Below are positions 27,001 through 30,000 of a stretch of 64,000 nt of DNA, in pieces (the stretch's first letter is position 1; the number at the start of each line of letters is the position of its first letter). Source of the stretch: Escherichia coli. GTDB taxonomy: Bacteria > Pseudomonadota > Gammaproteobacteria > Enterobacterales > Enterobacteriaceae. The stretch lies in the NCBI RefSeq assembly GCF_041248615.1, contig NZ_CP158426.1. One strand, 5' to 3'. A program made the position numbers.

Positions 27001-30000
27001 ATGAAAATGAGCGTGCTTATCGCAAACATCTCAATGCCGCCCCATACAAAGCATTCGCTGCTCGTGCAGCTGACATTATTGACAGGAAGAAGAAAATTAC
27101 CCTGGAGCCACAGTTTCTGGGCGACAAACACATCATACCGAATGAACGAACTATCAATAATCTGGTGATCGTCGAAGTAAAGCCTGAATTTCAGAGCGAA
27201 TTTAGAAACATCGTCCTTCCTGAAATGGTCGAGTCGCTCAAAGTAGAGAAAGGCGTGTTAGCCATGTATGCCGGTACAGATTCAGAGACTCCAAAACGCT
27301 GGTATTTCTATGAGATTTACGCCAGTGAGGAGGATTATCAACTGCACCGACAAACGCTGCACTTCCTGGATTACCTCAGGCAAACGGCGCATATGAGCGC
27401 CAGGAAGGACGCAATCCCGGTAAAACCGGTATTTCTTCGTAACAAAGGCGGAATCAAACAGGAGCCGCAACGTTGACCAGTAAGGATTAACATGAAAAGC
27501 GTACTTGCAGCAGCGGCTATGTCGCTTGTTATTTCTGATTTTGCCAATGCTGAGGAAACAAGAGGTAAAGCTATGATGAAAATAGAACCGTCAGCGATTT
27601 CGGAAGCTGATATTCGTTCCGTCTCACCGGCTCTCGCGCGCTTTGGTCGCGAAGCTATTACTGAAGATCTGTGGACACGCGACGCCCTCTCACCGAGGGA
27701 TCGTAGTGTGGTGACCGTCGCCATGCTGATTGCCCGCAACCAGCCTGCCGAGCTTAAGCACTATATTGACGTCGCTCTCGATAGCGGCGTGACGCCAGCG
27801 GAATTATCAGAAATCATTACCCATCTGGCGTTCTACTCAGGTTGGCCAAATGCAATGTCAGCCGTCAGCGTGACCAAAGCAGTATTTGAAACTCGTGGCG
27901 TCACGGCAGATGCACTTCCTGAAGCTTCTCCGGACCTGCTTCCTCTCAATCAGGAAGCAGAAAAGCAGCGTTCAGAGACAGTGGAAAAAAATGTTGGCCC
28001 AATATCTCCAGGCCTGGTTAAATTCACTGCTGATCCACTCTTCCTGGATCTCTGGCAAAGACCCGCGCTGAAACCCCGCGACAGAAGCCTGATTACGGTC
28101 AGCGCCTTAATCGCATCCGGACAGAGCGCGCAGATTGGCTATCACCTCAATAGAGCAATGGATAATGGACTTTCTGTTGAGGAAGCTGGTGAGATCGTTA
28201 CCCAGGCCGCCTTCTATGCTGGCTGGCCAAACGCATTTACCGCTGCTCCGGTTGTGGGAGAGGTGCTAAACAATCGATCATCGAGTAAAAGGTAACATTA
28301 CTGAACACTAAAACCTGACGCACATCACAAAATTAGAACGATCAGTTCATGAACCAACAGACGTGACATCGAGTGATTTATGGACAGCGTTTAACACAGT
28401 TATGAACCAAAACTGAGTTCATAACTGTGAGTTTGAATCGCCATTTGATTAATATCCATTTAAAACAGTTTGTTATACTGTTTCTGGTGCTGTCGTAAAT
28501 TATGTATATTCCTCAAACCCAGAATAGTTAAATGGAATTTGAGTGATGCGAAGCGATTTTCCAGTCGTCGTTATTACTTCAGGGTTCCAGAACATAAAGC
28601 CTCTCCTCTTTCATAATTGGCCTGTGCATACCGGATATAGGCTGGCAGGTTTGCCGTTTGCCGCATCTTCCCTGCGTTGAAGAGTCAGGCTGGCAAACCA
28701 CACACCCTCTTTCCATCAACACTTCAGACAGCTTGCGGGAATGAGTTCACTCCGGTATCAGAAATGGCTACGCCTCAATGAAGCCAGGCGACTGATGCTG
28801 AATGAACATTACGATGTCACCACTGCAGCCTATGCTGTCGGTTACGAAAGCTTATCCCATTTCAGTCGGGAATATTCGCGGATGTTTGGAGAGTCACCTA
28901 AGAGAGATATTACCAGGTTAAGAAAGTCTGTCGGTCAGCTTTAATAAACCCTGCACTTATCTGTTTAGAGCAATTCCGTGTTAGTTACACTAGGCAAACA
29001 TTAACCATAGCTAATGTTTTATAGCCATATAAGCCATTGGTCGCTCTTGACCTTTCCTGACACTTCCCTTGTTCGCAATAATATTCTGTTTAGTCGCTGT
29101 TTATAAATATCATGCATAATGAAATCGTCATGTTATTTAGCGACATAAAATGTTTTTGCAAATACTCTCTACAACAAGTGCTGCAATAAACTTGTTGTGA
29201 TTAGGTGTCCTTGTAATTTAAAGATATTATCGTTCTTCGTGAAATGTAATAACCCTGGAAACTATATTCTCAGGGCAACAACCAATTAAGAATGATTCTT
29301 GTTTTATAAGCAATAACAGAATGACTTAATTGTTAACTCTCTTTATTCAGCTACTTAAATATAAATTTTGGAGAATTATGAAACTCAAACATGTCGGTAT
29401 GATTGTCGTTTCTGTGTTGGCGATGTCGTCTGCTGCGGTAAGCGCAGCCGAGGGAGATGAATCAGTAACGACCACTGTTAATGGCGGTGTTATTCATTTT
29501 AAAGGTGAAGTGGTAAATGCCGCTTGTGCGATTGATTCAGAATCAATGAACCAAACGGTTGAGCTGGGTCAGGTCCGTTCTTCTCGTCTGGCTAAAGCGG
29601 GTGACCTCAGCTCCGCCGTTGGCTTCAATATCAAGCTGAATGATTGTGATACCAATGTTTCCAGTAATGCAGCTGTTGCATTCCTGGGTACTACTGTCAC
29701 CAGTAATGACGATACCTTAGCGCTGCAGAGTTCAGCGGCTGGCTCTGCCCAAAATGTCGGTATTCAAATTTTGGACCGTACGGGGGAGGTATTAATACTT
29801 GATGGTGCCACTTTTAGCGCTAAAACCGACTTGATTGATGGCACGAATATACTGCCATTCCAGGCTCGTTATATTGCTCTCGGGCAGTCAGTAGCTGGTA
29901 CTGCAAACGCTGATGCGACCTTCAAAGTTCAATATCTATAATTCAATCTTAAGATGGCTATACGTCATCTGAAATTGAAACAGGGTGTGTGTTGCATGGC

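What the first reader, a model, noticed from the sequence alone, without database searches (positions are those of the whole stretch)
28545..28944. Frame-disrupted AraC-family regulator at the junction between the redox cluster and the fimbrial operon
A 67-aa ORF (28741-28944) is the C-terminal HTH of an AraC-type regulator aligned to the YdeO C-terminus, and an N-terminal-like 44-codon piece starts at 28545 in another frame. The gene is therefore broken, consistent with the K-12 yneL pseudogene as I recall it. Its position directly upstream of the fimbrial major subunit gene suggests it was once the dedicated regulator of the fimbrial operon.
Basis: partly seen in the sequence, partly recalled or inferred. 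Interest (0 to 1): 0.35.

Follow-up and report, generated by a model that had tools for sequence, protein, structure and literature searches.

The report
Dead stub of an AraC-type regulator (yneL)
This is the already-annotated E. coli yneL pseudogene: the last ~85 codons of a lost regulator gene, lying beside scraps of the hydrolase gene it most likely once controlled, so it is ordinary gene decay and not a broken regulator of the neighbouring fimbrial operon.

Summary
The window is E. coli isolate 362 (100% identity). The 67-codon ORF at 28741-28944 is a real AraC-family helix-turn-helix fragment (Pfam HTH_18, E 1.4e-15). It is the orthologue of K-12 yneL (b1506), and PGAP annotates 28687-28944 as a regulator pseudogene "missing N-terminus".

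The rest of the finding does not hold.
- The 44/45-codon ORF at 28543/28546 is in the same frame as the HTH ORF, not another frame.
- It is not AraC N-terminal sequence. It reads antisense across scraps of two other genes: the first ~28 codons of a DUF2255 gene (28527-28613, minus strand) and 52 nt from the interior of an alpha/beta-hydrolase gene (28636-28687, minus strand).
- The gene is 5'-truncated, not frameshifted. About 230 of ~304-318 codons are gone, including the whole AraC_N ligand domain.

Intact relatives (88% identical over the stub) are AraC_N-type, YqhC-like regulators. In all six enterobacterial loci they sit beside that hydrolase, usually transcribed divergently, and 0 of 80 loci held F9-like fimbrial genes. 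CFT073 lacks the stub yet is reported to express F9. K-12-type and window-type alleles are independent deletion products. No complete E. coli genome was found with an ancestral intact copy at this locus.

Verdict: known pseudogene; the fimbrial-regulator idea is not supported.

The parts
28690..28944 (+). 3' remnant (84 codons plus stop) of an AraC_N-type AraC/XylS regulator gene. It begins at the codon equivalent to L231 of the 318-aa Citrobacter youngae homologue, inside the first helix-turn-helix. PGAP calls the pseudogene at 28687-28944.
   Evidence: blastn gives 87-89% identity to the 3' ends of intact genes in L003-L007. BLASTP gives 88% over 85 aa. The junction was mapped. A private 12-nt deletion lies between 28699 and 28700 relative to other E. 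coli alleles.
28741..28944 (+). The 67-codon ATG ORF named in the finding, the exact equivalent of K-12 yneL b1506. It covers only the end of HTH1 and HTH2.
   Evidence: ORF list; Pfam HTH_18 E 1.4e-15; K-12 alignment. No sigma-70-like site is predicted on the + strand upstream of it. GGGA lies directly against the ATG, which is poor Shine-Dalgarno spacing (sequence).
28636..28687 (-). 52-nt remnant of the interior of an alpha/beta-hydrolase gene (codons about 254-272, 'LQRWEDAASSKPAYQPAY'). It is fused head-on to the AraC stub at 28687|28688 and has a private 8-nt deletion between 28644 and 28645.
   Evidence: The longer E. coli allele (W46) is 55/60 nt identical to the hydrolase genes of L004 and L007. 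Smith-Waterman score is 50, against 10.3 +/- 1.2 (max 15) for shuffles. See also blastn and tblastn. The same piece hits annotated 'alpha/beta hydrolase' genes in E. coli argW-island copies at 94-98% (H179 and H180).
28527..28613 (-). Remnant of the first ~28 codons of a DUF2255 gene (MKEER-FMFWNPEV...DDWKIASH) with at least two frameshifts. It is cut off at 28527.
   Evidence: Window 28570-28615 is 42/46 nt identical to the 5' end of the L003 2079-2468(-) ORF, E 5e-13, with matching peptide pieces in two frames. There are colinear weaker matches to L005. The L005 homologue is Pfam DUF2255, E 2e-39, and the L003 and L005 proteins are 85% identical.
28543..28680 (+). It runs antisense over the DUF2255 and hydrolase remnants and ends at TGA 28678-28680, which lies in hydrolase-derived DNA.
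20839..28526 (.). 7.7-kb 'redox' island inserted between the hipA 3' flank and the remnant. It is absent from K-12 and carries its own divergent LysR regulator (21135-22034, minus strand). It is not part of the remnant module.
   Evidence: The K-12 hipA flank matches 20488-20838 at 96% and K-12 resumes at 28527. Only 467 genomes cover the island side of the junction.
29091..29127 (+). F9 (ydeQRST/fml) promoter as mapped in CFT073: -35 TAGTCG 29091-29096, -10 CATAAT 29115-29120, start site G 29127, which is 251 nt before the major-subunit ATG at 29378. It is intact here and lies outside the remnant.
   Evidence: Sequence compared with the description in PMC3966885. The major subunit is Pfam Fimbrial, E 5.9e-31.

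Best explanation
Window 28527-28963 is the eroded wreck of a small gene module that an ancestor of E. coli carried between hipBA and the F9 fimbrial operon. The module was a DUF2255 gene and an alpha/beta-hydrolase gene on one strand (possibly with an alcohol dehydrogenase gene), and on the other strand an AraC_N-type, YqhC-like AraC/XylS regulator. By analogy with its intact relatives, that regulator most likely controlled the adjacent hydrolase gene(s).

Deletions removed almost everything. What remains is the first ~28 codons of DUF2255, 52 nt of hydrolase interior, and the last 84 codons of the regulator.

The regulator stub is K-12 yneL. It lacks the whole ligand/dimerisation domain and the start of its DNA-binding domain. 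No expression signals are recognisable, and it drifts roughly neutrally. It therefore does nothing, or at most is transcribed incidentally.

Shown here: the identity and boundaries of the three remnants, the architecture of the intact relatives, and the absence of the missing part at this locus apart from a separately acquired copy. Inferred: that the ancestor carried the complete module, and that the regulator's target was the hydrolase.
For: - The stub is 88% identical at protein level and 87-89% at DNA level to the 3' end of intact 304-318 aa regulators in Citrobacter, Klebsiella and Enterobacter. These carry Pfam AraC_N (E 4e-45) plus HTH_18.
- The three remnants are colinear with the Enterobacter vonholyi arrangement: DUF2255 at L003 2425-2469, hydrolase interior at 3396-3433, AraC 3' end from 6121. 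The hydrolase and DUF2255 pieces are individually significant.
- The two allele classes are different deletion products. The K-12-type allele (3066 genomes) keeps 112 nt that match the hydrolase 3' flank and retains the AraC gene only from about codon 250. The window-type allele (about 813 genomes) keeps hydrolase interior and the AraC gene from codon 231. Neither can be derived from the other.
- Only 94 of 5426 complete E. coli genomes hold the missing 5' part of the regulator gene. In 86 of them it is a complete copy with the hydrolase and alcohol-dehydrogenase signature of the argW/intS island, examined directly in strain M18. At least 4 hold an IS3-cut Enterobacter-like copy.
- Substitutions among E. 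coli stubs run about 10 non-synonymous to 4 synonymous, near the neutral ratio of about 3:1. Intact homologues show dN/dS of 0.04-0.1, and the K-12/O91 lineage also carries a 1-nt frameshift.
- A homologous hydrolase lies within 6 kb in 42 of 80 intact-homologue loci, including all six Enterobacterales. F9-like genes are present in 0 of 80.
Against: - No genome with the complete ancestral module at this exact locus was found, so the ancestral state is reconstructed, not observed.
- The hydrolase-as-target inference rests only on conserved neighbourhood. No member of this close subgroup has been characterised, as far as I could find.
- The dN/dS estimate uses six alleles and few substitutions, so its power is low.
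- Microarray compilations are said to show yneL signal in K-12 (PMC9308461), so transcription is not excluded.
- A near-full-length second copy of the same regulator type sits at this same junction in a few strains. That could be read as non-random.
Confidence: 0.9

Rival explanations
1. One reading: a full-length AraC-type gene broken by frameshifts that used to be the dedicated regulator of the adjacent F9 fimbrial operon.
For: - It lies 434 nt upstream of, and co-oriented with, the F9 major-subunit gene.
- Some fimbrial operons do have AraC-family activators (general knowledge).
- In a few strains a near-full-length gene of the same type also lies just upstream of F9.
Against: - No N-terminal coding sequence survives in any frame. 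The upstream ORF derives from DUF2255 and hydrolase DNA on the other strand.
- Intact relatives are AraC_N-type with hydrolase neighbours, and 0 of 80 loci have F9-like fimbrial neighbours.
- CFT073 lacks the stub and is reported to express F9 from the mapped promoter under H-NS control. The same paper reports no link to the upstream regulators (PMC3966885).
- The extra copy in CUVET21-1780 is an IS3-truncated Enterobacter-like xenologue (97.8% to L003), not a preserved ancestor.
Confidence: 0.03
2. The stub is a functional stand-alone mini-protein of 67-84 aa (a single HTH) kept by selection, for example as a DNA-binding modulator.
For: - The 3' 204 nt are retained in most E. coli genomes.
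- Some pipelines annotate an 84-aa 'AraC family transcriptional regulator' (P0001).
- Microarray signal is reported for K-12 yneL (PMC9308461).
Against: - The commonest allele class (K-12/O91 type, 3066 genomes) has a frameshift inside it.
- The substitution pattern is near neutral, and one codon shows three different replacements.
- HTH1 is incomplete, so the bipartite AraC DNA-binding domain cannot form.
- No promoter-like site and no well-spaced ribosome-binding site were found.
- The stub is absent from CFT073.
Confidence: 0.04
3. The stub is the remains of the regulator of the upstream 'redox' cluster. AraC_N regulators such as YqhC control oxidoreductase genes.
For: - It lies 390 nt downstream of the last gene of the redox cluster.
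- YqhC, the characterised E. coli AraC_N member, lies next to the reductase genes yqhD and dkgA (annotation).
Against: - The redox island (20839-28526) is a separate insertion present at this junction in only about 467 genomes, while the remnant occurs in thousands without it.
- The island has its own divergent LysR regulator.
- The stub's own partner genes (hydrolase, DUF2255) lie between it and the island.
- Homologues of the island's genes are almost absent from the intact-homologue loci: 0-3 of 80.
Confidence: 0.02

Closest known systems
E. coli K-12 yneL (b1506) pseudogene
   Same: Orthologous position between hipA and the yde/F9 operon. It is the same 204-nt segment, about 95% identical across the ORF.
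   Different: K-12 has an extra 1-nt deletion (frameshift). It also lacks window 28631-28735, which is replaced by 112 nt of hydrolase 3' flank, so the window allele keeps about 19 more regulator codons plus a piece of hydrolase interior. K-12 also lacks the redox island and 3.3 kb of the F9 operon.
Intact AraC_N-type regulators of Enterobacteriaceae: E. coli WP_000622442.1 in the argW/intS island; Citrobacter youngae, Klebsiella michiganensis and Enterobacter spp. homologues
   Same: 88% protein identity over the surviving 85 residues. Fragments of the same neighbouring hydrolase and DUF2255 genes are found beside the stub.
   Different: They are complete (304-318 aa, AraC_N plus dual HTH) and lie in other genomic contexts. 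The window copy keeps only about 28% of the protein.
YqhC (E. coli activator of yqhD-dkgA)
   Same: Same domain architecture as the intact relatives (AraC_N plus HTH). It is 31% identical over 255 aa to the intact homologue and 41% over 76 aa to the stub, and it lies next to its target genes on the opposite strand.
   Different: A distant paralogue at another locus with different neighbouring genes. The aldehyde-sensing role of YqhC (my own knowledge) cannot be transferred.
YdeO (AraC-family acid-resistance regulator, window 38879-39640)
   Same: Shares the generic AraC second HTH (38% over 45 aa).
   Different: It has no AraC_N domain relationship and much weaker similarity than YqhC-type proteins.

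Membership tests
AraC/XylS family | C-terminal DNA-binding domain with significant match to the HTH_18 / HTH_AraC profiles | tested here: met
   HTH_18 E 1.4e-15 (57.8 bits, cut-off 33.6). HTH_AraC scores 26.1 bits, just under its 26.6 cut-off.
AraC/XylS family | Complete bipartite domain (two helix-turn-helix motifs, about 100 aa) joined to an N-terminal regulatory domain | tested here: not met
   The match covers profile positions 23-76 of 80 only. Homology starts at residue 231 of 318, inside HTH1, and residues 1-230 are absent in all frames.
AraC_N (PF06719) / YqhC-like subgroup | Closest full-length relatives carry the AraC_N domain | tested here: met
   Homologues 88% identical to the stub have AraC_N at E 4.3e-45 and 1.1e-44. 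All 80 loci encode relatives aligning over at least 273 aa to the 318-aa homologue.
AraC_N (PF06719) / YqhC-like subgroup | The AraC_N domain is present in this gene itself | tested here: not met
   It has been deleted. There is no Pfam hit in the upstream ORFs and no tblastn match to residues 1-224.
K-12 yneL pseudogene | Same sequence in the same chromosomal position (hipA side, upstream of the yde/F9 operon) | tested here: met
   K-12 b1506 aligns to 28741-28944, and both flanks are colinear.
YdeO / GadX-type regulators | Specific similarity beyond the generic HTH | tested here: not met
   38% over 45 aa (E 7e-6) against 88% over 85 aa to AraC_N-type proteins.
Dedicated fimbrial-operon regulator | Intact homologues encoded next to chaperone-usher fimbrial genes | tested here: not met
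   0 of 80 homologue loci (+/- 6 kb) have F9-like major subunit, chaperone or usher at E<=1e-5, while 42 of 80 have the hydrolase. The exception in E. coli CUVET21-1780 is an IS3-borne insertion.
Dedicated fimbrial-operon regulator | Operon expression depends on the regulator | not testable with these tools
   Indirect only. CFT073 lacks the stub and is reported to express F9 at 20 C under H-NS control. The authors saw no link to the upstream regulators (PMC3966885).
Rns/CfaD/AggR-type fimbrial activators | Sequence relationship to that subgroup | not tested
   No reference sequence of that subgroup was compared. The strong AraC_N affiliation makes membership unlikely.

The most novel reading that the evidence does not exclude
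The breakpoint at window 28527, just upstream of F9, may be a recurrent capture site where AraC_N-type regulator modules have landed at least twice: the ancient module now reduced to yneL, and an IS3-associated Enterobacter-like copy in a few strains. If so, either the surviving HTH stub or such copies could have some regulatory cross-talk with the f9 promoter, or the stub could be made as a mini-protein.
Probability: 0.04. Interest if true: 0.4.

Novelty: already known. Interest (0 to 1): 0.1.

Why it matters
Little changes. yneL is already listed as a pseudogene in K-12, and PGAP already marks it as an N-terminally truncated regulator.

The useful outcome is corrective. The stub should not be treated as a lost F9 regulator, nor as a member of the YdeO group. 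The small ORF upstream of it should not be annotated as part of the gene.

The reconstruction is a tidy worked example of pseudogene erosion at a hypervariable chromosomal junction: a DUF2255 / hydrolase / AraC_N module, with independent deletions in the K-12-type and window-type lineages. It may help annotators, but it opens no new biological question.

Tried and rejected
- Searched for AraC N-terminal coding sequence in 28001-29400 in all frames, using two intact homologues (tblastn, word size 2, E<=10). Nothing rose above noise. Pfam on the three upstream ORFs gave no hits.
- The first protein search returned only short proteins (<=153 aa), so it did not itself reveal the full-length architecture. 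That came from the genome-contig scan.
- Looked for an intact copy at this locus in 5426 complete E. coli genomes. Found only the argW-island type of copy and the IS3-cut xenologue.
- Considered that the deletion joining hydrolase to AraC was mediated by microhomology ('GCGTTGAAGA'). The intact relatives have only imperfect similarity at the two sites, so I do not claim it.
- Rfam scan of the whole window at gathering thresholds: 0 hits. The promoter and terminator scan of 28250-29450 found no more sites than in shuffles and none upstream of the stub.
- NCBIfam gave only sub-threshold generic AraC hits for the regulator, and a far sub-threshold lactonase hit (65 bits against a 400 cut-off) for the hydrolase. 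No specific function can be assigned.

Full report
**Identity of the window.** Window 28300-29380 is 100% identical to E. coli isolate 362, NZ_OW967178.1. There PGAP annotates window 28687-28944 as 'helix-turn-helix transcriptional regulator; incomplete; missing N-terminus'. It lies between a carboxymuconolactone-decarboxylase-family gene (ends 28295) and the F9 major fimbrial subunit gene (ATG 29378).

**The observation.** The 67-codon ORF at 28741-28944 exists. It is a significant AraC-family HTH fragment: Pfam HTH_18, E 1.4e-15, profile positions 23-76 of 80. It is the orthologue of K-12 yneL b1506. K-12 1590334-1590536 aligns to exactly this segment, and K-12 carries one further 1-nt deletion.

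- The 44-codon ATG ORF starts at 28546 (GTG at 28543) and is in the same reading frame as the HTH ORF.
- One TGA at 28678-28680 separates them.
- The ORF has no Pfam match at E<=1.
- tblastn with two full-length homologues finds no trace of their residues 1-224 anywhere in 28001-29400.

**What the stub came from.** A protein search gave many short fragments whose longer members showed the motif pattern of AraC_N-type regulators. A scan of one genome per species found 80 loci encoding full-length relatives. The closest are in Enterobacter, Citrobacter youngae and Klebsiella michiganensis: 304-318 aa, Pfam AraC_N E 4e-45 plus HTH_18.

The stub is 88% identical to their last 85 residues and 87-89% identical at the DNA level. 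YqhC, the characterised E. coli AraC_N member, is 41% identical to the stub over 76 aa. YdeO, encoded in this window at 38879-39640, shares only 38% over 45 aa. The YdeO alignment therefore reflects generic family conservation.

**Anatomy of 28527-28963.** DNA comparison with the intact loci shows three colinear remnants.
1. Window 28690-28944 (+) is the regulator from the codon equivalent to L231 of 318, inside the first HTH.
2. Window 28636-28687 is the antisense of the interior of the alpha/beta-hydrolase gene that neighbours the regulator in the intact loci.
   - In the longer E. coli allele (W46) the piece is 60 nt, and 55/60 nt match L004 and L007.
   - The Smith-Waterman score is 50, against 10.3 +/- 1.2 for shuffles.
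   - The same piece hits annotated hydrolase genes in other E. coli at 94-98%.
3. Window 28527-28613 (minus strand) is the first ~28 codons of a DUF2255 gene, broken by frameshifts.
   - 42/46 nt are identical to the E. vonholyi gene, E 5e-13.
   - The peptides MKEER, FMFWNPEV and DDWKIASH match MKEERFMFWNYEV...DDLKIAPY.

The order DUF2255, hydrolase, regulator is that of E. vonholyi and K. michiganensis. The TGA that 'interrupts' the reading frame lies in hydrolase-derived DNA. The window allele also has private 8-nt and 12-nt deletions.

**How the gene was lost.** It is a 5' truncation, not a frameshifted full-length gene. About 230 codons, the intergenic region and most of the hydrolase gene are missing.

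Two allele classes in E. coli are different deletion products.
- The K-12/O91 type occurs in 3066 of 5426 genomes. It has 112 nt derived from the hydrolase 3' flank, joined to the regulator at about codon 250.
- The window/W46 type occurs in about 813 genomes. It has hydrolase interior joined at codon 231.

Each keeps something the other lacks, so their common ancestor had a more complete module.

The missing 5' part of the regulator is found in only 94 complete genomes.
- 86 have a complete copy. The arrangement, examined in strain M18, is a hydrolase / alcohol-dehydrogenase-pseudogene / AraC module in the argW/intS island, and those genomes also carry the yneL remnant.
- At least 4 have an Enterobacter-like copy (97.8% to E. 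vonholyi, only about 88% to the stub). Its 5' end is cut by IS3, and it is inserted about 480 nt upstream of the ordinary stub.

I found no preserved ancestral copy at this locus.

**Selection.** Over the 67 codons, intact homologues give dN/dS of 0.04-0.1. Among six E. coli stubs I count about 10 non-synonymous and 4 synonymous events, near the neutral expectation. One codon has been replaced three different ways, and one lineage is frameshifted. The sample is small, so this is supportive rather than decisive. No promoter-like site precedes the ORF, and the only purine-rich run abuts the ATG directly.

**Was it the fimbrial regulator?** The evidence says no.
- None of the 80 intact-homologue loci has F9-like major subunit, chaperone or usher genes within 6 kb. 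42 have the homologous hydrolase, including all six Enterobacterales.
- Scraps of that hydrolase sit next to the stub here.
- CFT073 has the F9 operon, but homology to this window starts only at 28965, immediately after the stub.
- In CFT073, F9 fimbriae are expressed at 20 C from a mapped promoter repressed by H-NS. The authors note that the variable 5' region contains hypothetical regulators with 'no evidence linking' them to f9 (PMC3966885).
- That promoter is intact in the window: -35 TAGTCG 29091-29096, -10 CATAAT 29115-29120, start site G 29127, 251 nt before the ATG at 29378.

The redox cluster is not the lost target either. It is a separate 7.7-kb island (20839-28526) absent from K-12, with its own LysR regulator, and the stub occurs in thousands of genomes without it.

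**Verdict.** This is a known pseudogene (K-12 yneL; also discussed in PMC9308461). Its origin can now be stated more precisely: it is the tail of an AraC_N-type regulator that belonged to a DUF2255 / hydrolase module. The module was eroded by several deletions at a hypervariable junction upstream of the F9 operon. Interest is low.

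Noticed in passing
L090 6983-8645 (E. coli CUVET21-1780, NZ_CP115342.1): A near-full-length AraC_N regulator gene lies about 480 nt upstream of the ordinary yneL stub and F9 operon, so two copies of the same gene type sit in tandem at this junction. It is 97.8% identical to Enterobacter vonholyi but only about 88% identical to the stub. Its first few codons are replaced by an IS3 end. At least four genomes show the same hit signature (H156-H159).
   Followed up: partly
L003 8229-8335 (Enterobacter vonholyi): A second, isolated copy of the last ~105 nt of the same regulator gene lies 1.9 kb downstream of the intact gene. 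Stubs of this gene's 3' end therefore also occur outside E. coli.
   Followed up: no
window 20821-20838 and 28503-28533: The 7.7-kb redox island (LysR plus eight redox/hydrolase genes) is bounded by an imperfect direct repeat (ATGTATATT...GTTAAAT). The same right-hand breakpoint (28527) is shared by three layouts: the K-12 hipA flank, this island, and the IS-rich island of CUVET21-1780. That suggests a recombination hot spot.
   Followed up: partly
window 29200-32480: The F9 (yde/fml) operon is complete here. K-12 has a 3.28-kb deletion of exactly this interval, which removes the major subunit, the chaperone and the 5' half of the usher and leaves the ydeT fragment.
   Followed up: yes
window 28792-28794 (codon 18 of the 67-codon ORF): This CTG (Leu) codon is ACG, CCG and CAG in three other E. 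coli alleles (FSIS11705876, O91 RM7190, K-12). That is three different replacements at one site within a 204-nt segment.
   Followed up: no
K-12 allele, replacing window 28631-28735 (L084 reverse complement): The 112-nt K-12-specific segment contains a perfect 8-bp inverted repeat (CAGTGTCT...AGACACTG). It matches the region just 3' of the hydrolase gene in E. vonholyi, C. youngae and E. coli M18, so it is probably the old hydrolase terminator.
   Followed up: partly
L088 164-2488 (E. coli CFT073): In CFT073 the DNA abutting the F9 promoter region at the point equivalent to window 28965 is a different set of genes (SDR oxidoreductase, LysR pseudogene, acetylxylan esterase). This is a third alternative occupant of the same junction.
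   Followed up: no
window 1-64000: The Rfam scan at gathering thresholds found no RNA family in the whole 64-kb window.
   Followed up: yes
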